Source: a phage
Assembly (NCBI GenBank): GCA_024682255.1
Contig: GCA_024682255.1_4716.1
Strand: one strand, 5' to 3'
DNA length: 64,000 nucleotides
Part shown: positions 12,851 to 25,579 of the stretch, piece by piece
How the letters are laid out: each line of letters starts with the position of its first letter
How positions within the stretch are numbered: the first letter of the stretch is position 1
Position numbers and translations under genes: made by a program
Notes under the pieces: generated by a model
Seen by the model: only the letters and a program-made list of their open reading frames with translations
Told to the model about the DNA's origin: nothing
Databases searched by the model: none

Positions 12851-15463
12851 TTAAGCGTCCGGCGTAAAATCAAAAGGAATGTCCGTACGAATGATATCAT
12901 AACGTTTTCCGAGGAAATAGAACTCTTCGGGAACCTGGCCTGGAATGATGCTATCACCGATGAACTGCGGATACGCCCAGATGTACTGGGTGAGTCCTTC
13001 GAACATATCCAGGTTATTTGCGTGGTTGCCCATGATACGTTTCCAGAGTTCGCGTTTATACGGCGTTTTAACATCGAACCCATAAAGCGGTGCGAGGTCT
13101 TCACCAGGAACAAATCCCAGGTAATAGTGGATCTGACTAACTGGGAAACCAAGGGTATCTCGCGGAATGGTGATCGCTTGCTCAGCCTTGGTGACATGCG
13201 TCTCAATAATCCAGTCATAGCACTCTGAATAGAACCGATCGAATTTCTCTGGATTATACCACGCTTTGGGAAGATTGAGTTTCTCCGTGAACGCGTTCGA
13301 CATGATCGTCGGCAAGAACGGAAGAACGCCGGTTTTGATCTGCGTGTATTTCGATTTTACCCGGTTAACGAGATTCCAGCAACTGTATCCTAACTGTTCG
13401 TTACAAAACTCAACATAGAGATCGTAGTCACCACCGGATAACGGGTTGTTAATATCACCGATGTCTGCGGCGTATTTGTTGGGATATCGGTTATTGAAAG
13501 CCAGTTTGGTTTGGTAGTCGTAGATACACGGTTTGTTGTTCGCTGTATTGATCCACCACCAGGGTTCACCTACTTGTACACAAATGTCCTGGACATGAGG
13601 GTAAATGATATCAGCAAACGCGGTTAACACATCCCCTAACCACGTCATCGCCTGTTGGTTACATGGAGACAACAACCAAGACGGTGGCGTATATCCGGTT
13701 GCTGCGATGTTTCCTTCCCAATCCTGCTGCGCCCACTCGAACGGGCATGCGGTACTCATCAATTCGTAACTTAAACTGATGGTGACGGAGAAATGGTGTT
13801 TTGCAGCATATGCGGCGAAAGCTTCATGCCACGCGATACAGGCCGGATTTAATACATCCGTGGTGTTCACCAGTAACTTACCCGCACTTGGCGTCCAGAC
13901 AGTATCGTAGAAATGCGACATCCCAACATAATGCACTAATTCATCTTGATACCCCGCATAAACCAGGTTCTCAAATACGCGCTCCGGCGTGATGTTGTAA
14001 TGGTCATCATAAGCGGTTATCGCACGAAGTTCGTGTGGCGTACAGTGGTGGCGACTAACCGTCATTTCCTGATACACCCCATCGATAGGAAGAATCTCGA
14101 TGGTTAAACCGAGGTCGATTGGCGTTTCCAGATAGGTCGTTTCAGTCGCATCTTCCTTATAATGTCGAGAACTCATGCTGAACATCAACGACGTTACCGA
14201 TTCGAGTTCGATGGGTTCGTCAGCATAGAACCCCGCCATTGCGTCATTGAAATCGATCGTCACGATTGCGCTTCTACCGTCTTCAGAGACATCGGTCGCA
14301 TATCGGGTTAATGAGATATACTGACGGCTATCGTCTTTGTGTACGACGGTTAAAACCGGCGGGTGTTCGGTATCTGCAAAGTTACGCTGATCGCCAGTAA
14401 ACGTGACCTTCGCTTTAAAGATCAAACCGAGTAACGATGTCATGGGATCATACGCAATACATCCGTGATCCAGCGTATCCGTTGTCCGCCATTCTATCCC
14501 GACCAACCCGTTAGCGGTATGACATCGCATATACGCATTAAGTGTCATGTCCTCACTGACAACCGCGAAGTTCTCTGTTGACTGACCGTTGATAATCCAA
14601 TACATCGGTTGCCAGAGGTTACGCGTACCTTTTGCGTAGCGGTAGGTTGGTGCGCCTTTGGGGTTGCCATTATTAAGATGGAATACGGCAGTACCTTGAT
14701 AATGGTCGTTCGTATTAATCGGAACACTGTAAGCATCGCCGAGGTCCGTACGTTCCACCTTCGTGACTGTCGCGTTTTCAAATAACCCACGTAGCGCGGG
14801 TAAACCGATATCTTCCGGCGCGTTTTCTCGACGAATCGCATCCGCGATGCGGTGGGCTAAGGCGGGGTAAATGACCTCACCCTGTTGTAGGTTTGCAAGA
14901 CCTACAAAGCGATCGGGAGCGATACCAGCAATCAATAACTCGACATCACCCTTCGTTCTATCGTCGTTAAGATATTTCAGTCCGGTAAGGTCAAGATGCT
15001 GAATAAGCGACAACAGGTTGTATTTACGGTTTTCAACAGTTAGTACAAGATCGCCCGCCCAAACCAAACTTCCCTCATCCGCTGTTACTTTAACGGATTG
15101 TCGGCCCGTGGTAGACGTTGTTGTCGTTTTATTTAATTGTCCTTGTAGGAAGTCGGTTGCGAGGTCAAAGGCGATACCGTAACGGTCAGCGACCGCTTGC
15201 ATGATTTCACGTAACTGGGTATCTTCTTCAATGATAATCTTGACAGGTATTCCCAAGAACGCTTTAGCGAGGTCTCGTTTAACCAACGAGACGAATACGG
15301 ATTTGTAGTATCGGCTTCCATCTTTCCCTTTAAAAAGAATGGAGGTTGTTTCGGGTGCCGATAGAACACGTGCAAATACAACATCGTCGGAAGTAAGAGA
15401 AAGTCCGTTTTTCTCGTTGACCAATCTTAGTATTTCATTTTGCGCGGTTTCATGTAACTTCAT
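12851..15463 (-). CDS. Large receptor-binding or tailspike-like structural protein (870 aa) with shared N-terminal anchor module
   Basis: N-terminus shares RD(I/L)AKAFLGIPVKI and DRYG(I/F)(A/V)FD motifs with 21250-21777 and 62527-end products; position in tail fibre cluster. Confidence 0.6.
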   Translation of the reverse strand: MKLHETAQNEILRLVNEKNGLSLTSDDVVFARVLSAPETTSILFKGKDGSRYYKSVFVSLVKRDLAKAFLGIPVKIIIEEDTQLREIMQAVADRYGIAFDLATDFLQGQLNKTTTTSTTGRQSVKVTADEGSLVWAGDLVLTVENRKYNLLSLIQHLDLTGLKYLNDDRTKGDVELLIAGIAPDRFVGLANLQQGEVIYPALAHRIADAIRRENAPEDIGLPALRGLFENATVTKVERTDLGDAYSVPINTNDHYQGTAVFHLNNGNPKGAPTYRYAKGTRNLWQPMYWIINGQSTENFAVVSEDMTLNAYMRCHTANGLVGIEWRTTDTLDHGCIAYDPMTSLLGLIFKAKVTFTGDQRNFADTEHPPVLTVVHKDDSRQYISLTRYATDVSEDGRSAIVTIDFNDAMAGFYADEPIELESVTSLMFSMSSRHYKEDATETTYLETPIDLGLTIEILPIDGVYQEMTVSRHHCTPHELRAITAYDDHYNITPERVFENLVYAGYQDELVHYVGMSHFYDTVWTPSAGKLLVNTTDVLNPACIAWHEAFAAYAAKHHFSVTISLSYELMSTACPFEWAQQDWEGNIAATGYTPPSWLLSPCNQQAMTWLGDVLTAFADIIYPHVQDICVQVGEPWWWINTANNKPCIYDYQTKLAFNNRYPNKYAADIGDINNPLSGGDYDLYVEFCNEQLGYSCWNLVNRVKSKYTQIKTGVLPFLPTIMSNAFTEKLNLPKAWYNPEKFDRFYSECYDWIIETHVTKAEQAITIPRDTLGFPVSQIHYYLGFVPGEDLAPLYGFDVKTPYKRELWKRIMGNHANNLDMFEGLTQYIWAYPQFIGDSIIPGQVPEEFYFLGKRYDIIRTDIPFDFTPDA

Positions 15464-15485: not shown

Positions 15486-16127
15486 TTAGATGTACTGCTT
15501 ACCGCCCACGAAGGAAGTTAACCAGTTCCCGCTGACGAGTTGTGATACCCAGCCTGGAACGGCTCTACCATTCTGGCTCATGATGTTACCACACCAACCA
15601 GGGAATCCGGGACGGATGTAATAGAAAGTTAAATTGTAGAGATGACAGTTCCATACCGCAACGTTATGTTTACCAGAAACCGCTTTAAAGACAAACGCGA
15701 CAGGTAACGGAGACGATAACAATTCGGTCACAGGGACAGCTGACCAGTTCGCATTCGCGTTCCATGGTTGCCAGGTATGACTACGCGAGTCGCAATATAC
15801 GTTACCGTTGCTACCGCGTCCGCCCGCGTTCCACCATAGCGACGGACTCATGTTTTTAAGTGAGGTAAATTGCTGTGGTGGTATATTCGGAATGATAACA
15901 GGGTTGGTACCTTGTCCGTGTTTCTTTTCTTTTGTGTTCACATAGCCGTTTATCGATTCGAGGTATTTCGTACCAGGATAATTGTTCTGGACTTGTGTCG
16001 CAATATCACGAACGTCGAACGTCCAGCAGATCATGGTGTTATAGTAAGCGTCGGTGTTATCGTGCCATGAGTTACCATCTTGTAAACGTGCGCCGCTATT
16101 CGGTGTTTTATCTGTACTTATAGCCAT
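15486..16127 (-). CDS. Hypothetical Trp-rich protein (213 aa) in tail fibre cluster
   Basis: ORF immediately upstream of 870-aa gene. Confidence 0.55.
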   Translation of the reverse strand: MAISTDKTPNSGARLQDGNSWHDNTDAYYNTMICWTFDVRDIATQVQNNYPGTKYLESINGYVNTKEKKHGQGTNPVIIPNIPPQQFTSLKNMSPSLWWNAGGRGSNGNVYCDSRSHTWQPWNANANWSAVPVTELLSSPLPVAFVFKAVSGKHNVAVWNCHLYNLTFYYIRPGFPGWCGNIMSQNGRAVPGWVSQLVSGNWLTSFVGGKQYI

Positions 16128-16304
16128 GGTCTTGTCCTATACGTTGGTGGTTGAAGTGGCGGATATCGGATGCATGCTGGACGTGAACCCTATAGTTCGC
16201 GCTATCGCCATTTTCTACCTCGTTTCTATTCTCAAAAAGGAAATTTCATACGATGACGCCATAGCAGCTCCTCCTTCCCTGACGGGTTGGAGGAGCATAC
16301 TTAA

Positions 16305-16811
16305 TTACTTACTGATAACCTCAACGGAGTTGGGATCAGCGATCAATGCACGGTCGGTAGAACAATTGAAGAAGACCATCCCAACACCATCGCCGTTCGA
16401 GTTCAGGGTCGAACTTGCGTAAGACAATGTTGGTTTGTTCATGCGGTAGAAGCGTTCGCTGGTTGCGGTATTGAACCCCAGGTCAACGTAGTCTTTCACC
16501 GTGGTATACAACTGGGTGGACTCGAAAACGGTTACCGGAGAGTCAACGGTAAACTGACTGCCTTCATCCACAACCAGAACTTTATCGTTCCAGATTTCAG
16601 TGGTTGAGAACTTCGGTTTCCAATGTTCGAATTCCTGGGTTGCACCCCAGCAAGAATACACAGCGAGATTGCTGTTCTTCTCAACAGGTTTTAACCCCAC
16701 CAGTTGCGTCAGGTCTTTATCCAGGTTCGGTAAACCTTCCAGCGTAGCACACCCACCCAGAGAAAGCACCATCAACATACCAAGAACGATCGCGCAAAGT
16801 TTCTTTGTCAT
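16305..16811 (-). CDS. Lipoprotein (168 aa); candidate superinfection-exclusion or receptor-masking factor
   Basis: Signal peptide plus lipobox MLMVLSLGGC; located between Tfa and receptor-binding protein genes. Confidence 0.6.
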   Translation of the reverse strand: MTKKLCAIVLGMLMVLSLGGCATLEGLPNLDKDLTQLVGLKPVEKNSNLAVYSCWGATQEFEHWKPKFSTTEIWNDKVLVVDEGSQFTVDSPVTVFESTQLYTTVKDYVDLGFNTATSERFYRMNKPTLSYASSTLNSNGDGVGMVFFNCSTDRALIADPNSVEVISK

Positions 16812-16852
16812 CGGATTTCCTCATGTGTTAACGGGAGTGATTTCCATAGTAA

Positions 16853-17269
16853 TTACACAGTTGTAGGAAATTCCGGCCAATCGATATTTGGTGCAGCATC
16901 GGTATCGACAGCAGTCACCGCATCAGTGTAATCCAAAACAGCATTAAGTCGGGTCGTTTCTTCCGGAGTCAGTTTTCGCCCAGCCCGTAATTTTAACTGA
17001 ATAAGATCGATGGAAGCCAGCGCAGAATCAATCAAAGATTGTTTTATCTGTTCTGCTTCGGCGACGAGATCTTCGTGTTGCCGCTCGGGTTCCGGAGGTG
17101 CGGTAAACTCACCATTTGAGTATGACCAACCTATTCCAGGTGACACAGCCTCCTTATCGTCGATATGAACCAACTGCTGATTGTCGAATATATCGAGCTC
17201 TGCTTCACCATCGTAAACAATCGTGTTTACTACCACTCCATTTTCAATAACAGCGTATAATGTACTCAT
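16853..17269 (-). CDS. tfa: Tail fibre assembly chaperone (Tfa; lambda Tfa / P2 gpG family)
   Basis: C-terminal motif TPEETTRLNAVLDYTDAVTAVDTDAAPNIDWPEFP typical of Tfa; ATG overlaps fibre stop (TAATG). Confidence 0.8.
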   Translation of the reverse strand: MSTLYAVIENGVVVNTIVYDGEAELDIFDNQQLVHIDDKEAVSPGIGWSYSNGEFTAPPEPERQHEDLVAEAEQIKQSLIDSALASIDLIQLKLRAGRKLTPEETTRLNAVLDYTDAVTAVDTDAAPNIDWPEFPTTV

Positions 17270-20200
17270 TACATAAACTCCTCGATGATGCAAATCCCAT
17301 TAGCACCGCGCCCACCAGGCTTAGCGGTTCCTGAGTAAGAGTTATCGTAAGCAGCACCACCACCCGAACCAGGCGCGAGGCCGTTATGGGCGGTGCCGAC
17401 ACCAGCACGGCCGCCACCGCCCCAATATGACGCACCCCCACATCCACCGGCGGCAAGAGTACCGGCTTGTCCATCGCTACCGTCTCCGCCCGGAATGCGT
17501 ATATCCCCGGTAGTAGGTACGCCCCCATAGCCACCGCCAGTGTTTGTGACAGTTGTTTTTCCTGCGCCTTGCCCGCCGGGAGCAGTTAGCAGGGATGCAA
17601 ATTTACTATCTCCACCCCCGTTCCCATTCGTCGCCCCAGAGCCACCGGAACCACCAGAACCAATTATAACAGAATAACTAGCAGCTGCTACCGTTATAAC
17701 CGAAATTACTGTTCCGCCAGCTCCTCCTCCAGCGCCAAAAAACGTTTCGCTGTTGGAATAAGCCTGACAACCGCCACCGCCACCGCCACCACCGGTTATC
17801 GTTACTCTAATCCGTTTTGTTCCTTGTGTTGGGGTGTACGTCCCTGACGATGTGAAAACACGCATATTCAGTAAACGCCCGACATATCCACTAGAATCGG
17901 CTAAACCAAGATCTTTAGCTGCTAACGTGATATTAGCCGTACCGTCGAAAGGTTTACCGTTAATCGTGCGCGCAGTTTGCAGCTTCGTCGCCGTTGCTGC
18001 GTTCCCTGATGTATTCTGGTTCCCCGCGGCGTTAACACCTGGTAGATTGATGTTCGCACTACCGTCGAACGCGACACCACCGATCGTCCTTGCTGTTTGC
18101 AGTTTTGTCGCCGTGGCGGCATTACCGGTCGTGTCTTGGTTACCGGTGGTGTTTACCCCAGGCAGGTTGATATTTGCCGTTCCGTTAAATGAGACACCAC
18201 CAATCGTCCTTGCCGTTTGCAACCTCGTTGCGGATGCCGCATTCCCCGTGGTGTTTTGGTTACCTGTTGCATTCACACCTGGGATACTATCCTTAGATGT
18301 GTAGATCTGTGCCCATTCCGACCAGTTCGCATCGGTTGAATCACGACGTGAACGTAAATAAGCTGGAGCGTGTGCACCTGAGGTACCTGACCACCCAATG
18401 AGGATTTCGCCTTCGCCGACCGATGAAGCACCTTTAAGATGAACAATGTTGCCGTAGGCTGTAGGGTATCCGTTATTGTACGCTTCATACATCTGGATAC
18501 CCGTGTTGCTGCCCTGGGTCGCATTAGCTAAAGCGGTGACCCGTCCTTTGGAAGCGAGCACGTTAATGCTAAAGCTAATATCGGTTGTACCGTCAAAGGC
18601 GACCCCGTTAATCTTCCGTGCTGTTTGGAGTTTCGTGGCAGTAGCCGCATTACCAGAGGTACTCTGATTACCTGCTTTGTTCACACCCGGTAAATCAATG
18701 TTGGCTGTTCCATCAAAGGACACGCCCCCTATGGTTCTCGCTGTCTGGAGTTTTGTTGCTGAACCAGCGTTTCCGGAAGTGCTTTGATTACCTGCCGCGT
18801 TGACACCTGGTAGGTTAATGCTAGCAGAGCCATCAAAAGAAACTCCGCCGATCGTGATCGGTGTTTTCAATTTCGTGGCTGTCGCGGCGTTACCCGTCGT
18901 ATTCTGATTGCCAGCCGCATTAACGCCTGGTAATGCGATATCGGTCGTACCATCGAACGCAACACCACCGATTTTACGGGCGGTCTGTAGCTTGGTCGCT
19001 GTAGCCGCGTTGCCGCTGGTATTTTGCGTGCCCGCTTCATTTACGCCTGGTAAATCAATGTTCGCAGTACCATCAAAAGAAACACCCCCGATGGTTCTCG
19101 CGGTCTGCAACTTCGTTGCACTTCCTGCGTTTCCGCTGGTGCTTTGATTTCCCGCTGCATTAACACCTGGTAGACTGATGCTGGCTGAACCATCGAAACT
19201 CACACCACCGATCGTAACAGCGGTTTTCAATTTCGTGGCGGTTGCTGCGTTACCGGTTGTATTTTGGTTGCCTGTCGCATTCACGCCAGGTAATGCAATA
19301 TCCGCTGTTCCGTCAAAGGCAACGCCACCGATTTTACGTGCAGTTTGTAGCTTGGTTGCACTAGCAGCGTTACCGCTGGTATTCTGGGTGCCTGCTTTGT
19401 TAACACCGGGGAGATCGATGTTAGCAGAACCATCGAAGCTGACGCCACCTATCGTTCTTGCGGTAGCGAGTTTAGCTGCTGTGGCTGCATTATTACCCAC
19501 TTTCAGCCAATCATCCCATGGACCATCCTGGCCGTTCCATGATGCCGTTAAACTACGTACGTAAATATTGCCGGTACGTACAGTGTAACGTTGCGTTCCA
19601 CCGAATTGCCCGGTTGGGAGCACTTCAATGTAACCTGCGGCGTTTGCTTCAGGGAAATTGTGGGCGATGTCCGCGTTCGTTGTTACTGGTTTAGACCAAA
19701 TACCAACAGACGCTTCGACTGGGCCGAAGGTATTCAGATTTGCGTCTATCGCCATAGCGCCATTAAATTTCAGGTATGTCTCTGGCGATAATCCGATCGT
19801 TTTAGCAAACGCAGCTTTATCTACGATATCACTACCGTTATTCCCTGCTTGCAACGCCGTCTTAGCTGCCTTTATGGTTTCGGTCAATCCAAGATATTGT
19901 AAGATCGCATCAACGCTTCCTTTGTTTAGCAGATTCAGACCTGTTGACGTTACGTTAGTTAGTCCGATTTGGTTCCGTCCAGTAAAATAAGGGAGTTTAT
20001 TCGCTTCTGTTGTTAGGTTAGACCACGCAGTCAACAACGCGTTCAAAGGCTGTTTACCCGCCAACGCATTGGTTACTGTCGTTGCGAAATTAGGATCGTT
20101 CCCTAAAGCTTGAGCCAGCTCATTAAGCGTATTTAGCGCTTCTGGAGACGAGTCGATCAGCGATGCGATAGCGCGCATCACAAATTCCGTGTTGGCAATC

Positions 20201-21243
20201 TGTCGACTGCTATCGTTCTCTGCAGCCGTAGGCGCTGCCGGGATACCGGTGAACACGGGGCTATTAAGATCTGCCTTGAGCGCGATGAGACGTTTAAGTG
20301 CGTCGACATCGACTTTCAGGTTTTCCCACCCGATGAGAGAACCACCACTGCTGGCATGATAACGGTTATACCAGAAGTCACCGTTAATGCCTAAAAAGAA
20401 TATTCCCTTCTCTTCGTTTTGTGGGCCAGAACTGTTCCGTGACGAGCTGATGTAATTGATTTCAATAAGACCGGTAAACGTCACTCCTGGAATTATTTTA
20501 TTGTCTCCAGCTGACTGTGATACCTGGTAAATCCCCGGGGTTGCGGCTTTAACCCATGTTAAGAATTCTGTTACTCCAGCGGTGCCGCTAAAATTCTTAA
20601 CGTCGGTAAGTATTGCCCCATAACCGAACATACCGGGTAGAGCCACTCGTCCGCTGGTACGGTCACGAATATCTGTTACAACAACGGGCAATTGTTTACG
20701 AACGGCATTAACCGCTTTAGGCGTGGCCGATTTTGTCTCGTCGTCGCTATCGGTTGCATTACTTAGAATAGTTAAACCGCGTGTAGCAGTAGTTGCATCA
20801 GGAAGAAATGCGTTATCCAACACCTTAAGCTGTACTGCACTCGTATTACTAACAACGACATGCACTTGACAGTTAAGAACGCTGGTTGCGCCTTCGGCAG
20901 GCGTAGGCTTATATCTTTCTGGTGCACTGCAGACGGCAATCAGAACACCTTGATCATCATACAGACCGATCTCACGTACCCAGAACCCACCTTGACCAGC
21001 AGGAATAATACCCTCAACGATAATCCTGGTTGTGCTATCACCATCCGCATGGATATTAGAAACTTCCCCACGATAAACTTCGTGGACAAGCGCTGTTTGG
21101 CTGGCGGACGGGGTTGGGATCGAGCCGTTACCATCACCAACGGCAAAGTGTGTGATTTTTAGTTTCTCACCGTCGGGAAGTAACGCAGCGGTGATACGTT
21201 CTGCTCCTTTATCGGTAACTACCGTTATATATGCTGTACTCAT
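17269..21243 (-). CDS. Long tail fibre protein (1324 aa), P2 gpH / lambda Stf-like N-terminal domain, 40-aa tandem repeats, Gly-rich C-terminal domain
   Basis: N-terminal motifs AVGDGNG, GGFWVREIGLYDD, ETKSATPKAV, ALNTLNELAQALGNDPNFATT as in P2 gpH; about 11 repeats of ATKLQTARTIGGVSFDG..LPGVN.GNQNTSGNA; poly-Gly run at residues 1151-1158. Confidence 0.85.
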   Translation of the reverse strand: MSTAYITVVTDKGAERITAALLPDGEKLKITHFAVGDGNGSIPTPSASQTALVHEVYRGEVSNIHADGDSTTRIIVEGIIPAGQGGFWVREIGLYDDQGVLIAVCSAPERYKPTPAEGATSVLNCQVHVVVSNTSAVQLKVLDNAFLPDATTATRGLTILSNATDSDDETKSATPKAVNAVRKQLPVVVTDIRDRTSGRVALPGMFGYGAILTDVKNFSGTAGVTEFLTWVKAATPGIYQVSQSAGDNKIIPGVTFTGLIEINYISSSRNSSGPQNEEKGIFFLGINGDFWYNRYHASSGGSLIGWENLKVDVDALKRLIALKADLNSPVFTGIPAAPTAAENDSSRQIANTEFVMRAIASLIDSSPEALNTLNELAQALGNDPNFATTVTNALAGKQPLNALLTAWSNLTTEANKLPYFTGRNQIGLTNVTSTGLNLLNKGSVDAILQYLGLTETIKAAKTALQAGNNGSDIVDKAAFAKTIGLSPETYLKFNGAMAIDANLNTFGPVEASVGIWSKPVTTNADIAHNFPEANAAGYIEVLPTGQFGGTQRYTVRTGNIYVRSLTASWNGQDGPWDDWLKVGNNAATAAKLATARTIGGVSFDGSANIDLPGVNKAGTQNTSGNAASATKLQTARKIGGVAFDGTADIALPGVNATGNQNTTGNAATATKLKTAVTIGGVSFDGSASISLPGVNAAGNQSTSGNAGSATKLQTARTIGGVSFDGTANIDLPGVNEAGTQNTSGNAATATKLQTARKIGGVAFDGTTDIALPGVNAAGNQNTTGNAATATKLKTPITIGGVSFDGSASINLPGVNAAGNQSTSGNAGSATKLQTARTIGGVSFDGTANIDLPGVNKAGNQSTSGNAATATKLQTARKINGVAFDGTTDISFSINVLASKGRVTALANATQGSNTGIQMYEAYNNGYPTAYGNIVHLKGASSVGEGEILIGWSGTSGAHAPAYLRSRRDSTDANWSEWAQIYTSKDSIPGVNATGNQNTTGNAASATRLQTARTIGGVSFNGTANINLPGVNTTGNQDTTGNAATATKLQTARTIGGVAFDGSANINLPGVNAAGNQNTSGNAATATKLQTARTINGKPFDGTANITLAAKDLGLADSSGYVGRLLNMRVFTSSGTYTPTQGTKRIRVTITGGGGGGGGCQAYSNSETFFGAGGGAGGTVISVITVAAASYSVIIGSGGSGGSGATNGNGGGDSKFASLLTAPGGQGAGKTTVTNTGGGYGGVPTTGDIRIPGGDGSDGQAGTLAAGGCGGASYWGGGGRAGVGTAHNGLAPGSGGGAAYDNSYSGTAKPGGRGANGICIIEEFM
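17929..18291 (-). repeat. Coding tandem repeat block 2 (three 120-bp units) within tail fibre gene
   Basis: Three 40-aa repeat units at protein residues about 985-1105. Confidence 0.75.
18574..19491 (-). repeat. Coding tandem repeat block 1 (about 7.5 units of 120 bp, in 360-bp higher-order units) within tail fibre gene
   Basis: Residues about 585-890; units recur with period 40 aa and superperiod 120 aa. Confidence 0.8.
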
Positions 21244-21249
21244 GGTGTT

Positions 21250-21777
21250 TTATCCTGGATAAATAGTGATGATATCACCAATGACGGTTGTGGCACCGGC
21301 GTAAAGATGAGCCGGAGATACATCGTGTTGGTTTGTCACAGTAAGATCCAATCGACCACGCCAAACCATGGAGGTATTCGCGATGGGGATAGAAATCTTT
21401 TTGGATATATCGTCACGAAAATCAATAACAGTGGCAAGGGTAACCGCATCAAAATCAACGTCGGGGTCAAAGACGAACCCGTATCGATCTGAAATAGCTC
21501 GAATAATCGCATGTATAGTTGTTGTCTCAACAGACTCTAAAACGATTTTTACCGGTATGCCTAAAAATGCCTTCGCGATATCGCGTCGGGCGTAAACGAT
21601 AAAGCATTCACCGCACCACTTTGTTCCTTCATTTGCTGTGACGATCACTTTTGCCCTGTTAGCACCAGAACTCCCATCCAAGGTTAATGTAAGATCGGAG
21701 CTGCTGAACACGCTACCGTTACGTTGGTTTATCAACGTAATCAGTTCGTCTTTCCATGGCGGGTAAAGTGAACGCAT
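21250..21777 (-). CDS. Small protein (about 176 aa) consisting of the shared N-terminal anchor module only
   Basis: Start at ATG 21777 with GGAGGAGG RBS; motifs WKDELITLINQRNG, RRDIAKAFLGIPVKI, SDRYGFVFD shared with 870-aa and 62527-end proteins. Confidence 0.65.
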   Translation of the reverse strand: MRSLYPPWKDELITLINQRNGSVFSSSDLTLTLDGSSGANRAKVIVTANEGTKWCGECFIVYARRDIAKAFLGIPVKIVLESVETTTIHAIIRAISDRYGFVFDPDVDFDAVTLATVIDFRDDISKKISIPIANTSMVWRGRLDLTVTNQHDVSPAHLYAGATTVIGDIITIYPG

Positions 21778-21890
21778 AAGCGCACCCTCCTCCAACAATC
21801 AAATTAAAATATATAACTCCTCGAAACCAGAGTGCGATTCGAGGTAAGCGTAAACAGTCCAGACGACCGCATAAAATTCCGCGCATATTG

Positions 21891-21922
21891 CCCCTCTATC
21901 TCGACAAAGCGAGATAGAGGGG
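21891..21922 (-). terminator. Long hairpin (13-bp stem) downstream of the 1198-aa gene
   Basis: CCCCTCTATCTCG-ACAAAG-CGAGATAGAGGGG; two further hairpins at 21816-21842 and 21960-21977. Confidence 0.5.
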
Positions 21923-21982
21923 AGGATAATACGATTATGCTGCCGCACTCCAAAGTTCATGGGGCGGTAACCGCCCCATCGG

Positions 21983-24900
21983 TTAAATGGTTGGTTTTAC
22001 ATCACGTAATAAGGCAATATAATAGCCTAATCCTCGGAGGATCTCCCCACTCCAGAAACCAAAATACATTCCGTCTCTGCCGAGATTAGCGCTATCTGGT
22101 GCAGGACTCCACCCACCATTCATTACGTCGTCAACAGTGTAATGGTTGATGTAGTTCTCAACGATTTCGTTATAAGCATTAACCGCAACAGAATAGCCTT
22201 TATCGTTGGGATGTCCGTACAACATTGCTAACGACGCACCCGCCAACCATAATCCCGCCATGTGACCAGTAAAGTCATTAGGGATAAAAGCAGGGGGTTT
22301 ATCCATCGGAAAATCCGTAGGGGATTGATAAGCGTTTTCCTGTTGATACGTAAACAAGAAATCGATCCAATGACTGATGTAAGTGGTTAATTTCTCAGGG
22401 ACAGCCAAACCATGATCAAGCAGCCCAGCATAAAGCCTCACCGCTGAGAAGAAAGCCCTCGGCTGATAACCGGACCATGCCGTCTGATCGCCGAAGTGGT
22501 ACATCGTAAAATCGTTAACTTTTGATCCGCTTGGCGCATCCCAACGATCCCACACGTACGCACTTGCCCCTGGCCCTAAAACCCCGAATTTCTGATAATA
22601 CCACTGTTGTGAGTCATACCAGAAATTCACAACGTTCTGAATCATGAGGTCACGTCGTTCAGTCGGTACTTCCATATCCAGGAAGACCCATGGATGTTGG
22701 TAGCCGGGATAAGGCTGACCACGCCAACTGTCGAACGTCGGTGCGTTAGGGATATAGTTGTTCGAGAACGGAATAATACCCGGAGTATAAGGCAACGGAT
22801 CGAGACGTTGGTTAACGATCGTGCAATCACCAACACGTAATGTTCCCTCTGCCTCAAAGGTTGCTTTTAACGTAAACAACATGGTATATCCGTCATCCGT
22901 GGTGTATGTTGACGGTGGATTGTTGATGGCGTAAAGCTTAAATACCCCTTCAGCGATATCGCTGTCGTCAGGCAAGAACAGAATTTCAGTTGAGCCATCG
23001 CCCCACACAGGTGCAGAAGGTCTAGGGTCAGTATCAGTGTGGTTCGGTTGATACCCTGAGAGCGTCCATCCGTTCGTCGAAAGCGTCAGCGTATTTCTTG
23101 CTGTGGTAGCCGGTAGCATCTGCCACCATCGCCAACCATTTGCATCTTCTACACGAACGTTGTAGTCAATCGACGCGAAATAACTGACCTGCCTTACGAT
23201 CTGTTTTGCGGTTGGATTGAATTCAAATTGCCCGCCTGCTGCAGTAAGCTGTGCTTTTAGGAACAACCCATCCCAGGAATCTTCCACTGCTTCGCTGAAT
23301 TCTGTTGTGATGGCGACATCATCTTTCCAGCCGACTTTATCAGCCGATACCAACACAGAACCTGTAACAGCATCACCGGTTGGTGTTGATGCTTCATCAA
23401 CCGCATCAGCAGGAATCAACGAGCCTATTTTGAAATCCCATCCTTTCGGTTCAGCGCTGGAAGGTAATACCAGTTTGTACGTTTTGGCGTTCGCTTCGGT
23501 TTTGTCCAAAGAAAGCGATAATGAGATCTCAACCGGAATTGCGACACCGGCTGTATCTTTACCTCCGCAGGTTACACGAAGAATTGAATCCCGATTTACG
23601 CGGAACGGAATGGCCTGCTGCTCAAGGTAAATTTGTGCTGAAGATGCTTGAATCACGATCCAGCCATCGGTATCACGCGTGATTGTAAATGGTGCTTTCG
23701 ATGGGTATGTATACGTGTAAGCGATACCGTCGGTGTCGTAACGATCGGTTCCTTTTACCTGACGGAAGAACTTATCGTTGGCGTCGATACGGGTATATTC
23801 TTCAATCGTAAACAACGATGCCTTGTACGCTTTCTGATAGCGCTCCTGCTGCGTTAAACGATATAAGGTGTAGGCTGCTTCACAAAACCACTGTTCGGCG
23901 TCTGATGCGTTTCCCATGTAGTCTCTGGTGACCGGCACCTGGATCGGTCGGTTATGCTGACATTCGTTTGTTTTGATGAGGTATCCACCATATTCAACAG
24001 GAACGCGGGGTGCCCATGCAACCAAGTAAGAACCGCTGACGGATTTATCTTTGAGTACGATGGTACCTACTTCATCGTCGGTACACGCTTCAAGATCGTC
24101 TCCGTCAGCACTTACGTAACGTTTTGTGCGTAACGCAACTTTCTCGATAGGGAACACCGTACCCTTTGTATCCCAGTCAATTGTCCCATCATCATTGGTT
24201 TTGAACACATCCGCGTTCAAATTCTGCCAGCCGAGTTTACCCTCATAGACCTGAACAACAAGATCCATGTATTCCCCGAACGTGGGCGCGCCATGTGTTA
24301 TTTTTCCGATACCGTTGGTGAATGTAACCGCTGTGTCATGGAAACCGCCATGTGTTGGGTAATCGTCTTTTGCAAGAGGATAATGGGCCAACACAGGTTG
24401 TTTACCATTAACAATCCAGTTAGCGATCCAGCGTGCTGGTGTATCCGGTGGTTCAAGGCCTGCATAGAACGCATTTATATACGCATCGAACGATGCCTCC
24501 GCTAATGTGAGATAATGCGCTTTAAGCTTGGTATCATCCGTTGTATGACTGAATATACCCGCACCCAGAATTAACAACGACTGTCCTTCTGTTGTTGCGT
24601 CACCGTCCGGTTGTGCTTCTTGTCGTGTTGCTGCAATGAAATGACGGTTGTTTACCATGACTCCGCTTTCATTTAACACGTAATGATCGGTTTCTGGATC
24701 GGTAAACGTTCCTGTGTTTCGGGTTAAGAATCTTGCATGACCATAACCAACGAAATTAACCGGCGACGCCGTAAGCACCCATTTACCGATAAGTTGAGCG
24801 ACGTCATTATAACGCTCCGATGCGGTGATTTGTTTCACGTACCAATCTTTACGGTTAAATGTCCAGAGCAAGAAGTAATAGGTCGTATTGATTTCCATTA

Positions 24901-25579
24901 CCGGAAACGTTGGTGTTAACGGCTCCAGCGTTAAGTAGTTGCTCCAATCAATCTGTCCACCAACAACCGATGAGGTAATCTCTAATAACTGACACCATTC
25001 ATAACGGTTCGGTACACTACTGGACGTTGTTGGTAAAGGTAACTTGTATACGCCAGTACGATTCAGATCGAACGCTTTTCTAGCCGATCCTAAATCAACA
25101 TAAATACTCGATGATGCGCTTGCATCAGATGCCTCCAAAGCACCTAGCGTTGACCGATACATTGAGATGAACAACGTATCTTTCCAGTAAGGGTTATCCT
25201 CGGTTGGTTCTAAAGCGATTTGTGCGGAGATGCTGTTCCATGTCCCTAACTGGTATGCTGCATTTAAAGATTCTTCCGTGAAATAACTTTCCGCAATCGC
25301 CAGATGGAACTGTTCATTCAATAACGCGAGTGCACTGCGACCGGTAACATCCTCATTACCGGTTTCTTTTTTCATGATCGCGCCGAACGGAAACAGTGTC
25401 GCGAATGACCGTTTTGGTTTATTAACCGTAATCGTCCCCGTGTAGTTTCCAACACCGTCAAGTTTTTGACTATCGCCAACAGCAGTGACTGCGATACCAT
25501 CAGCCGGGATATCTGTTTTATTTAGTACATTGAGTTGGTCAACCAGATCCTGCTTATCGTCGGGTAAGAATGTCGCCAT
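21983..25579 (-). CDS. Large structural protein (1198 aa), putative tailspike or fibre with Trp-rich C-terminal domain
   Basis: Longest ORF in tail fibre cluster; C-terminal 330 aa rich in W/Y/G; enzymatic assignment unverified. Confidence 0.65.
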   Translation of the reverse strand: MATFLPDDKQDLVDQLNVLNKTDIPADGIAVTAVGDSQKLDGVGNYTGTITVNKPKRSFATLFPFGAIMKKETGNEDVTGRSALALLNEQFHLAIAESYFTEESLNAAYQLGTWNSISAQIALEPTEDNPYWKDTLFISMYRSTLGALEASDASASSSIYVDLGSARKAFDLNRTGVYKLPLPTTSSSVPNRYEWCQLLEITSSVVGGQIDWSNYLTLEPLTPTFPVMEINTTYYFLLWTFNRKDWYVKQITASERYNDVAQLIGKWVLTASPVNFVGYGHARFLTRNTGTFTDPETDHYVLNESGVMVNNRHFIAATRQEAQPDGDATTEGQSLLILGAGIFSHTTDDTKLKAHYLTLAEASFDAYINAFYAGLEPPDTPARWIANWIVNGKQPVLAHYPLAKDDYPTHGGFHDTAVTFTNGIGKITHGAPTFGEYMDLVVQVYEGKLGWQNLNADVFKTNDDGTIDWDTKGTVFPIEKVALRTKRYVSADGDDLEACTDDEVGTIVLKDKSVSGSYLVAWAPRVPVEYGGYLIKTNECQHNRPIQVPVTRDYMGNASDAEQWFCEAAYTLYRLTQQERYQKAYKASLFTIEEYTRIDANDKFFRQVKGTDRYDTDGIAYTYTYPSKAPFTITRDTDGWIVIQASSAQIYLEQQAIPFRVNRDSILRVTCGGKDTAGVAIPVEISLSLSLDKTEANAKTYKLVLPSSAEPKGWDFKIGSLIPADAVDEASTPTGDAVTGSVLVSADKVGWKDDVAITTEFSEAVEDSWDGLFLKAQLTAAGGQFEFNPTAKQIVRQVSYFASIDYNVRVEDANGWRWWQMLPATTARNTLTLSTNGWTLSGYQPNHTDTDPRPSAPVWGDGSTEILFLPDDSDIAEGVFKLYAINNPPSTYTTDDGYTMLFTLKATFEAEGTLRVGDCTIVNQRLDPLPYTPGIIPFSNNYIPNAPTFDSWRGQPYPGYQHPWVFLDMEVPTERRDLMIQNVVNFWYDSQQWYYQKFGVLGPGASAYVWDRWDAPSGSKVNDFTMYHFGDQTAWSGYQPRAFFSAVRLYAGLLDHGLAVPEKLTTYISHWIDFLFTYQQENAYQSPTDFPMDKPPAFIPNDFTGHMAGLWLAGASLAMLYGHPNDKGYSVAVNAYNEIVENYINHYTVDDVMNGGWSPAPDSANLGRDGMYFGFWSGEILRGLGYYIALLRDVKPTI

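What the first reader, a model, noticed from the sequence alone, without database searches (positions are those of the whole stretch)
17269..21243. gpH/Stf-like tail fibre with 120-bp tandem repeats in 360-bp higher-order units and a polyglycine C-terminal domain
The fibre has a P2 gpH-type N-terminal domain, then about 11 copies of a 40-aa repeat arranged as a three-repeat supermotif repeated about 2.6 times, interrupted by a 94-aa insert. The C-terminal 170 aa is extremely Gly-rich (G8 run, many GGxGG). The DNA repeats are about 80 percent identical, enough for recombinational length variation, and a Tfa chaperone gene follows with a TAATG overlap.
Basis: seen in the sequence. Interest (0 to 1): 0.5.

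Follow-up and report, generated by a model that had tools for sequence, protein, structure and literature searches.

The report
Modular jumbo-phage tail fibre with repeats
This is the long tail fibre gene of a Goslar-like jumbo phage of E. coli, assembled from known phage parts (P2-type anchor, P1-type 40-residue shaft repeats, glycine-rich receptor-binding tip, separate chaperone); it is ordinary in kind, but its relatives show clearly how repeat number and tips are shuffled.

Summary
Window 17269-21243 (-) encodes a 1324-aa tail fibre, the orthologue of Goslar gp90 ("tail fiber repeat protein"). The window is a Goslar-like chimallivirus.

- **Anatomy.** It has a P2 gpH-type N-domain (PF12571) and 11 units of 40 aa in the pattern A B C A B C A b* | 96-aa knob | D E f*. 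It ends in a C-terminal Gly_rich_2 domain (PF21722, 32% Gly, G8 run). A 138-aa Tfa gene follows with a TAATG overlap.
- **Repeat identity.** The DNA repeats are 61-80% identical, not about 80%, and the longest exact in-register run is 17 bp. Most differences between units are synonymous.
- **Copy number.** It is not fixed. 120 relatives carry 5-11 units in more than 30 architectures; 8 units is the commonest count and this window has the maximum.
- **Tip.** The Gly-rich tip is not a cleaved chaperone. A profile of the family aligns with the TNF-like plus glycine-rich receptor-binding domain of cyanophage Pam3 gp24 (7YFW; hhalign 95.8%).
- **Cassette exchange.** The tip travels with its Tfa. 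Mu-like and P2-like prophages carry the same pair, and Goslar-like alleles with Peptidase_S74 tips lack a Tfa gene.

Both structure predictions failed. Verdict: a new member of a known kind, of low to moderate interest.

The parts
17269..21243 (-). Tail fibre gene, 1324 aa; orthologue of Goslar gp90 (Goslar_00090, 'tail fiber repeat protein')
   Evidence: ORF. Megablast to Goslar covers 100%. 99% identical to P0001 and 88% to Goslar gp90.
20821..21243 (-). N-terminal baseplate-attachment domain (aa 1-141), P2 gpH type
   Evidence: Pfam PF12571 Phage_tail_fib, E 3.4e-41.
20698..20793 (-). Single Phage_fiber_2 motif (aa 151-182)
   Evidence: Pfam PF03406, E 1.5e-8.
19492..20697 (-). Proximal shaft (aa 183-584). 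No Pfam family. Contains the 'SSPEALNTLNELAQALGNDPNF' motif shared with other solved phage fibres.
   Evidence: No Pfam hit. PDB 9d93 'Tail collar fibers, gp4' matches aa 355-414, E 6e-9.
18577..19491 (-). Upstream repeat array: units R1-R7 (40 aa / 120 bp each) plus the first 25 aa of R8. Pattern A B C A B C A b*, that is 2.67 copies of a 360-bp higher-order unit.
   Evidence: TRF; unit coordinates and identity matrices; unit typing.
18289..18576 (-). 96-aa module (aa 890-985) inserted inside unit R8
   Evidence: Spacing of 136 = 40 + 96 aa. 70-75% identical to the same module in P1/P7 gpS and 57-67% in SSU5, Gifsy-2 and Fels-1 Stf. Absent in P0080, P0093 and P0100. No Pfam or PDB sequence match.
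17884..18288 (-). Last 15 aa of unit R8, then units R9 (D), R10 (E) and R11 (f*, degenerate junction to the tip)
17272..17883 (-). C-terminal glycine-rich tip (aa 1121-1324). The Pfam Gly_rich_2 match covers aa 1132-1321 (window 17281-17850). Predicted TNF-like plus glycine-rich receptor-binding domain.
   Evidence: PF21722, E 2.4e-11. 32% Gly with a G8 run. Family profile against Pam3 gp24: hhalign 95.8%. Conserved Gly motifs separated by variable segments.
16853..17269 (-). Tail fibre assembly chaperone (Tfa), 138 aa. Its ATG overlaps the fibre stop (TAATG).
   Evidence: PF02413 Caudo_TAP, E 5e-20. Junction sequence. 65% identical to the Tfa that follows the same tip in Mu-like prophages.

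Best explanation
This is the long tail fibre, the receptor-binding fibre, of a Goslar-like chimallivirus. By analogy with every studied member of these families it should be a homotrimer.

The P2 gpH-type N-domain anchors it to the peripheral baseplate. A long shaft follows. It is built from a proximal part and from 11 P1 gpS-type 40-residue units, which set the reach of the fibre. A 96-residue P1 gpS-type module is inserted in a loop of unit 8.

The C-terminus is a Gly_rich_2 domain: a beta-sandwich from which glycine-rich strands project. Their conserved Gly motifs form the scaffold, and the variable segments between them form the receptor-contacting end. The small Tfa encoded immediately downstream, translationally coupled through TAATG, folds and trimerises this tip and then leaves.

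The receptor is probably the LPS core (inferred).

The fibre evolves in modules. Whole 40-residue units are lost or gained in register, and the tip is swapped together with its matching chaperone as a cassette shared with Mu-like and P2-like prophages.

Shown here: domain identities, repeat anatomy, polymorphism, cassette co-variation. Inferred: trimer, fold of the tip, chaperone release, receptor, effect of length.
For: Domain hits.

Goslar gp90 is detected in purified virions by mass spectrometry and is listed as a likely peripheral-baseplate or tail-fibre component (bioRxiv 10.64898/2026.04.21.720040).

Tip.
- The Gly_rich_2 domain lies at the extreme C-terminus in nearly all of the 150 best representatives. 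The family has 7174 clusters at E <= 1e-3.
- A profile built from those representatives aligns colinearly with Pam3 gp24 residues 101-275: hhalign 95.8%, E 7e-9; hmmsearch E 2.2e-11.
- The Pam3 fragment also hits PF21722 over the whole model, E 1.6e-4, and is the top PDB hit.
- In Pam3 this domain is the receptor-binding end and is folded by a Tfa-like chaperone in a 3:3 complex (PMC9608196).
- Host-range mutations of the Klebsiella phage protein TFP_Y map to the same kind of domain, and that protein interacts with LPS (PMC12671077).

Cassette co-variation.
- Mu-like and P2-like prophages carry a tip about 70% identical, followed by a 136-aa Tfa that is 65% identical over its full length.
- Goslar-like alleles with Peptidase_S74 or 'NxGY' tips have no Tfa gene.
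- The collar-tip allele has a different 194-aa Tfa that shares only the C-terminal third.

Receptor. In genome-wide screens on E. coli K-12, Goslar, whose tip is 96.8% identical, depends on the LPS outer core ('GluII'; hits in galU, hldE, waaF). Its receptor-binding protein is unassigned.

Repeat polymorphism. An in-register hybrid unit in Goslar marks a unit-precise crossover.
Against: Both AlphaFold2 models were poor (pLDDT 42.5 and 39.2). No fold was therefore confirmed for the tip, the repeats or the insert.

The direct sequence match of the tip to Pam3 gp24 is weak (E 0.33), and a profile of close relatives alone gave nothing. Glycine-rich composition can inflate profile scores; HMMER reported a bias of 59.9.

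The same tip occurs without an adjacent Tfa in the siphophage ZCEC13.

Goslar-like phages carry other candidate host-recognition proteins next door: DUF7941 proteins with glycosidase-like domains. The LPS dependence need not come from this fibre.

Nothing here shows that repeat number affects host range.
Confidence: 0.85

Rival explanations
1. The Gly-rich C-terminus is an intramolecular chaperone, or a disordered low-complexity tail, that is removed after assembly. The true receptor-binding part would then lie upstream, for example the 96-aa module.
For: Other alleles of this same fibre end in a Peptidase_S74 intramolecular chaperone. The AlphaFold2 confidence for the Gly-rich part is very low.
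Against: The window protein has no Peptidase_S74 hit. A dedicated Tfa is encoded downstream and co-varies with this tip. The Gly motifs and hydrophobic anchors are conserved across thousands of clusters. The domain is homologous to the Pam3 gp24 domain, which forms the distal receptor-binding end of the solved fibre.
Confidence: 0.05
2. The repeat array is a fast contingency locus. Frequent slippage or unequal recombination within a phage population would change fibre length from one generation to the next.
For: Copy number differs among relatives whose first 400 residues are 99-100% identical: 72 such pairs. More than 30 architectures are seen.
Against: Units are only 61-80% identical in DNA, and the longest exact in-register match is 17 bp. 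17-23 of 40 codons differ synonymously between same-type units. The 'extra' unit in Goslar is only 72-82% identical to its neighbours, so it is not a fresh duplicate. The N-domain is conserved throughout the family, so identity there does not show recent common ancestry.
Confidence: 0.1
3. Repeat number is selectively neutral shaft filler. The variation reflects only mosaic recombination between co-infecting relatives and has no effect on adsorption.
For: The same unit architectures occur with different tips, and the same tip occurs with 5-11 units. No functional data exist.
Against: There is strong purifying selection on unit protein sequence: 3-7 non-synonymous against 17-23 synonymous codon differences. 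The distribution has a clear mode (62 of 120 have 8 units). The window and Goslar have different unit arrangements but an identical total length of 1324 aa. This is suggestive only.
Confidence: 0.35

Closest known systems
Escherichia phage vB_EcoM_Goslar gp90 (Goslar_00090, QBO63883.1, 'tail fiber repeat protein') with gp89 Tfa
   Same: Orthologue. Same length (1324 aa), same domain order, same gene neighbours and the same TAATG-type overlap. The tip is 96.8% identical.
   Different: 88% identity overall. Goslar has 7 units before the insert and 4 after it; the window has 8 and 3. One Goslar unit is an in-register hybrid of window units R4 and R5.
Cyanophage Pam3 tail fibre gp24 with chaperone gp25 (PDB 7YFW, 7YPX)
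   Same: The C-terminal TNF-like plus glycine-rich domain has about 10-12 conserved Gly motifs and a final hydrophobic strand (GICIIEEF against GIIIVQYF). A separately encoded Tfa-type chaperone lies just downstream.
   Different: Pam3 gp24 is a minimal 280-aa fibre with a helical N-terminal stalk. Here the domain caps a 1100-aa shaft. Sequence identity is about 33%, and the fold could not be confirmed by prediction.
Tail fibres of Mu-like and P2-like enterobacterial prophages that end in Gly_rich_2 (308-374 aa; often mislabelled 'carbohydrate kinase')
   Same: The tip is 68-73% identical. It is followed by an overlapping 136-aa Caudo_TAP gene that is 65% identical to the window Tfa.
   Different: Those fibres are short and lack the 40-aa array. 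They sit next to an oppositely oriented second tip/Tfa gene set and a Resolvase-family gene. The window has neither of these.
Phage P1/P7 tail fibre gpS and lambdoid side tail fibres (Stf of Gifsy-2, Fels-1, mEp460)
   Same: They carry the same 40-aa shaft unit (about 70-80% identical) and the same 96-aa module (57-75% identical). The Goslar annotation also notes similarity to P1 gpS.
   Different: tblastn with the three-unit query found fewer separate matching places in those records (1-5) than in Goslar (7). Their tips also differ.
T-even (S16/T2-type) gp38 adhesin with glycine-rich motifs and hypervariable segments
   Same: The working principle is the same: a scaffold of glycine-rich strands presents variable loops to the receptor.
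   Different: gp38 is a separate protein attached to the gp37 tip. The window protein has no Pfam Gp38 hit, and its tip is covalently part of the fibre.

Membership tests
P2 gpH-type tail fibre N-terminal domain (Pfam PF12571 Phage_tail_fib) | Match to the family model above the curated cut-off, at the N-terminus | tested here: met
   aa 1-141, E 3.4e-41, 141 bits against a cut-off of 23
Gly_rich_2 / Pam3 gp24-type TNF-like plus glycine-rich receptor-binding domain | Match to PF21722 above the curated cut-off, over the whole model | tested here: met
   aa 1132-1321 against model positions 2-224 of 226, E 2.4e-11, 44.5 bits against a cut-off of 24.3
Gly_rich_2 / Pam3 gp24-type TNF-like plus glycine-rich receptor-binding domain | Sequence homology to the solved member (Pam3 gp24, 7YFW) | tested here: met
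   A profile of 150 diverse representatives against gp24 residues 101-275: hhalign 95.8%, E 7e-9, 165 colinear columns. The single-sequence match is weak (E 0.33), and a profile of close relatives was uninformative.
Gly_rich_2 / Pam3 gp24-type TNF-like plus glycine-rich receptor-binding domain | Fold: a beta-sandwich with a lattice of extended glycine-rich strands | tested here: inconclusive
   The AlphaFold2 model has pLDDT 42.5. Only the sandwich strands reach pLDDT above about 65, and the Gly-rich part is below 30. No fold search was run on it.
Gly_rich_2 / Pam3 gp24-type TNF-like plus glycine-rich receptor-binding domain | Conserved glycine-rich motifs alternating with variable segments | tested here: met
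   Column conservation in 141 close and 151 diverse sequences
Gly_rich_2 / Pam3 gp24-type TNF-like plus glycine-rich receptor-binding domain | Binds the host receptor | not testable with these tools
   Only indirect evidence. Goslar needs the LPS outer core. Mutations in the TFP_Y Gly-rich domain change host range.
Tail fibre assembly protein (Caudo_TAP, lambda Tfa / Mu gpU type) | PF02413 match; gene immediately downstream of the fibre gene; tip-specific N-terminal part and conserved C-terminal part | tested here: met
   E 5.3e-20. TAATG overlap. 65% identity over full length to the Tfa of the same tip, but only the C-terminal 74 aa (43%) match the Tfa of a collar-type tip.
Intramolecular chaperone domain (Peptidase_S74, endosialidase / T5 pb1 type) | PF13884 match near the C-terminus | tested here: not met
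   No hit in the window protein. Alleles P0061, P0081 and P0118 in relatives do have it.
T-even gp38 adhesin | A separate small adhesin protein that matches the Gp38 family | tested here: not met
   The Pfam scan returned only the three families listed. The Gly-rich domain is fused to the fibre.
P1 gpS-type shaft (40-aa unit and 96-aa module) | Sequence similarity to the repeated unit and to the module of P1/P7 gpS | tested here: met
   tblastn: units 70-80% identical; module 70-75% identical over 99% of its length. No curated Pfam or NCBIfam model covers either.

The most novel reading that the evidence does not exclude
The three-unit (A-B-C) super-repeat might correspond to a structural period of the trimeric shaft. 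In that reading chimalliviruses tune fibre reach by adding or removing whole units, and selection keeps the protein units alike while driving their codons apart so that the array stays stable. Together with swapping of the tip-plus-Tfa cassette, this would make gp90 the main host-range switch of Goslar-like phages, with the Gly-rich tip reading the LPS outer core.
Probability: 0.15. Interest if true: 0.45.

Novelty: new member of a known kind. Interest (0 to 1): 0.25.

Why it matters
Tail fibres of nucleus-forming jumbo phages were not resolved in the Goslar cryo-EM study, and the protein behind Goslar's LPS dependence is unassigned.

This analysis gives a domain map of the fibre. It names the tip as a Pam3 gp24-type glycine-rich receptor-binding domain with its own chaperone. 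It also shows that Goslar-like phages in public assemblies carry at least four tip types and 5-11 shaft units.

That is useful for host-range prediction and fibre engineering. It does not reveal a new kind of system.

Tried and rejected
- **AlphaFold2 of aa 1041-1324** with 32 sequences gave pLDDT 42.5. **AlphaFold2 of aa 825-1040** with 28 sequences gave pLDDT 39.2. Both alignments were too shallow (63-99% identity), and the protein is probably an interdigitated trimer. I ran no fold searches because the models are unreliable.
- **PDB sequence searches.** The whole protein, the ABC units and the insert found no structure for the repeats or the insert. A profile of alignment A1 against the PDB found nothing.
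- **hhalign with close relatives only** was uninformative (Neff 1.4, probability 7.7%). It was replaced by a profile from diverse representatives.
- **Curated family libraries.** Pfam and NCBIfam have no model for the 40-aa unit, the insert or aa 183-584.
- **Internal duplication of the insert.** I tested whether the insert duplicates the region just before the array. Only a marginal local match of 22 aa was found (E 0.049), so this was not pursued.
- **Megablast against complete E. coli genomes** gave no match, so the fibre gene has no close DNA match in complete E. coli genomes.
- **Promoter and terminator scans** of 16000-22500 were at chance level.
- **Literature search** on tail-fibre repeat copy number returned nothing relevant.
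- **Third large homologue search** was not spent.
Full report
**Where we are.** The window is a relative of Escherichia phage vB_EcoM_Goslar, a 237-kb nucleus-forming jumbo phage of the Chimalliviridae. A 20-kb stretch around the finding matches Goslar over 100% of its length at about 94% identity, and nothing else in the phage collection matches. The gene order is the same as Goslar_00086 to Goslar_00092. The fibre gene has no match in complete E. coli genomes.

**The observation.**
- The ORF at 17269..21243 (-) encodes 1324 aa.
- Tandem Repeats Finder reports a 360-bp period (2.1 copies, 78% matches, score 916; 18683-19434) and a 120-bp period (4.3 copies, 68%; 18868-19383).
- In protein there are 11 units of 40 aa, with consensus NAATATKLQTARTIGGVSFDGSANIxLPGVNxAGNQNTSG.
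- The units fall into types that give the pattern A B C A B C A b* | insert | D E f*. Same-type units are 82-92% identical in protein and 69-80% in DNA. Different types within that array are 61-72% identical in DNA.
- Unit 8 is split after residue 25 by a 96-aa insert (aa 890-985), and its last 15 residues follow the insert.
- The last 170 residues are 32% glycine, with a G8 run.
- The fibre stop and the start of the next gene overlap as TAATG.

The DNA identity between units is 61-80% rather than about 80%, and the longest exact in-register match is 17 bp.

**What the parts are.**
- *N-terminus.* aa 1-141 is the P2 gpH-type fibre N-domain (PF12571, E 3e-41). aa 151-182 is one Phage_fiber_2 motif.
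- *Shaft units.* The 40-aa unit has no Pfam, NCBIfam or PDB sequence match. It is nevertheless widespread in phage fibres: P1/P7 gpS, SSU5, 9g, Aeromonas and Acinetobacter phages, and cyanophage P-TIM68.
- *Insert.* The 96-aa insert is 70-75% identical to a module of P1/P7 gpS. It is 57-67% identical to modules of SSU5 and of the Gifsy-2 and Fels-1 side tail fibres.
- *Tip.* The C-terminus matches Pfam Gly_rich_2 (PF21722) over the whole model (E 2.4e-11).
- *Chaperone.* The downstream 138-aa protein is a Caudo_TAP tail fibre assembly protein.

**The glycine-rich tip.**
- The family is very large. There are 7174 clusters at 50% identity with E <= 1e-3, and the domain ends at the C-terminus of the protein in nearly all of the listed members.
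- The best PDB sequence hit is the tail fibre gp24 of cyanophage Pam3 (7YFW, 7YPX). It is weak as a single-sequence match (E 0.33).
- The Pam3 fragment itself matches PF21722 over the whole model (E 1.6e-4).
- A profile built from 150 diverse representatives aligns colinearly with gp24 residues 101-275. The hhalign probability is 95.8% (E 7e-9) and the hmmsearch E-value is 2.2e-11, although the composition bias is high.
- In the solved Pam3 complex this region is a TNF-like sandwich. Twelve glycine-rich motifs project from it as a four-layer lattice with a variable distal tip. A Tfa-like chaperone trimer embraces it during assembly. The authors relate it to S16 gp38 and to the ALK glycine-rich domain (PMC9608196).
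- In the window family the Gly motifs are nearly invariant and the segments between them vary.
- In a Klebsiella myophage, host-range mutations map to the Gly-rich domain of the Pam3-like protein TFP_Y, and that protein interacts with LPS (PMC12671077).
- There is no Peptidase_S74 signature in the window protein.

I conclude that the tip is a retained receptor-binding domain and not a cleaved chaperone. My own fold test failed: the AlphaFold2 model had pLDDT 42.5, with moderate confidence only for the sandwich strands.

**Tip and chaperone move together.**
- Mu-like and P2-like prophages of E. coli and Klebsiella carry fibres of 308-374 aa that end in a tip about 70% identical. Each is followed by an overlapping 136-aa Tfa gene. 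A second, oppositely oriented tip/Tfa gene set and a Resolvase-family gene lie next to them. That Tfa is 65% identical to the window Tfa over its full length.
- Within Goslar-like phages, alleles ending in a Peptidase_S74 chaperone or in an unassigned 'NxGY' tip have no Tfa gene.
- The one collar-domain allele has a different 194-aa Tfa that shares only its C-terminal third with the window Tfa.
- One siphophage, ZCEC13, has the tip without an adjacent Tfa.

**Repeat number varies.**
- Goslar gp90 is also 1324 aa. It has 7 units before the insert and 4 after it, against 8 and 3 in the window.
- Its fourth unit is a hybrid. It matches window unit R4 for the first ~17 nt and R5 for the rest, which is the signature of an in-register crossover.
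- Among the 120 best homologues, most sit on contigs of up to 244 kb from E. coli, Salmonella and Shigella assemblies and from metagenomes. Their total unit counts are 5 (2 proteins), 6 (4), 7 (10), 8 (62), 9 (16), 10 (18) and 11 (8).
- There are 3-8 units upstream of the insert and 0-4 downstream. Three proteins lack the insert. More than 30 architectures are seen. The window has the maximum.
- Tips among these relatives: Gly_rich_2 in 70, NxGY in 29, Peptidase_S74 in 19 and collar in 1.
- Seventy-two pairs of proteins with at least 99% identity over the first 400 residues differ in architecture.

**How fast the array changes.**
- The units are old. Between same-type units, 17-23 of 40 codons differ synonymously and only 3-7 non-synonymously.
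- Goslar's additional unit is only 72-82% identical to its neighbours.
- The array is therefore not a high-frequency slippage locus. The variation looks like occasional in-register deletion or exchange among diverged units, together with recombination between related genomes.
- The strong excess of synonymous change shows purifying selection on the unit sequence. Whether codon divergence is itself selected to stabilise the array is not shown.

**Function in the virion.**
- The Goslar cryo-EM preprint detected gp90 in purified virions by mass spectrometry. It could not resolve the tail fibres or the peripheral baseplate. It describes the neighbouring DUF7941 proteins (gp86, gp91, gp92) as a candidate fibre cloud.
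- In genome-wide screens Goslar depends on the LPS outer core ('GluII'), and its receptor-binding protein is listed as unknown.
- The Goslar tip and the window tip are 96.8% identical. Assigning LPS-core binding to this tip is a reasonable inference, but it is unproven.

**Verdict.** In kind it is an ordinary mosaic tail fibre with a cognate chaperone, and it is already annotated in Goslar. The modest additions made here are:
- the unit-level anatomy and super-repeat;
- the extent of copy-number and tip polymorphism in Goslar-like phages;
- the identification of the tip as a Pam3 gp24-type domain that is exchanged with Mu-like and P2-like prophages.

Noticed in passing
window 16305-16811 (-): The 168-aa protein just downstream of the Tfa gene begins MTKKLCAIVLGMLMVLSLGGCATLEG, which looks like a lipoprotein signal peptide with a cysteine. 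It matches only phrog_9559 (unknown function). It is kept next to the fibre in relatives whatever their tip type. It could be a receptor-blocking or superinfection-exclusion lipoprotein, as in T5 Llp; that comparison is from memory and was not tested.
   Followed up: partly
window 21250-21798 (-), 21983-25579 (-), 12851-15463 (-): The fibre sits among DUF7941 proteins, the orthologues of Goslar gp91, gp92 and gp86. The 870-aa one carries 'non-contractile tail sheath' N-terminal and TIM-barrel domains. The Goslar preprint proposes that these form a host-recognition 'fibre cloud'.
   Followed up: partly
L002 1557-3308; L003 1556-3310: Two Goslar-like relatives have an extra 583-584-aa gene (DUF7941 + DUF285) between the gp92 and gp91 orthologues. 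The window and Goslar have only a gap of about 185 bp there.
   Followed up: no
proteins P0001-P0120: Goslar-like contigs of 233-244 kb turn up in many E. coli, Salmonella and Shigella isolate assemblies and in metagenomes, yet the phage collection holds a single isolate. These jumbo phages seem much more common with enterobacteria than isolate collections suggest.
   Followed up: no
P0040, P0076, P0097-P0115 (relatives): A frequent alternative tip that ends ...FAGTAGATNQGY or ...NEGY has no Pfam family and no Tfa gene downstream. How it folds and what it binds are unknown.
   Followed up: partly
P0114, P0117, P0081 (relatives): Some alleles carry additional sequence upstream of the repeat array. 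In P0114 this is a T4 gp34 trimerisation domain (PF21446) at aa 614-726; the first unit starts at 0-based position 747 in P0114 and P0117, and at 898 in P0081. Other alleles differ by an indel of about 32 aa just before the array, with the first unit at 552 against 584.
   Followed up: no
window 17834-18304 (+), 18908-19147 (+), 19178-19564 (+): Long antisense ORFs lie across the repeat region. Their translations are themselves repetitive (…PSKATPPI…AVAALP…), which suggests a by-product of the repeat's codon pattern rather than genes. I did not test them against any family library.
   Followed up: no
window 17269-21243 compared with L001 9001-12975: The window fibre and Goslar gp90 have different unit arrangements (8+3 against 7+4) but exactly the same total length of 1324 aa. 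This may be coincidence or a constraint on fibre length.
   Followed up: partly
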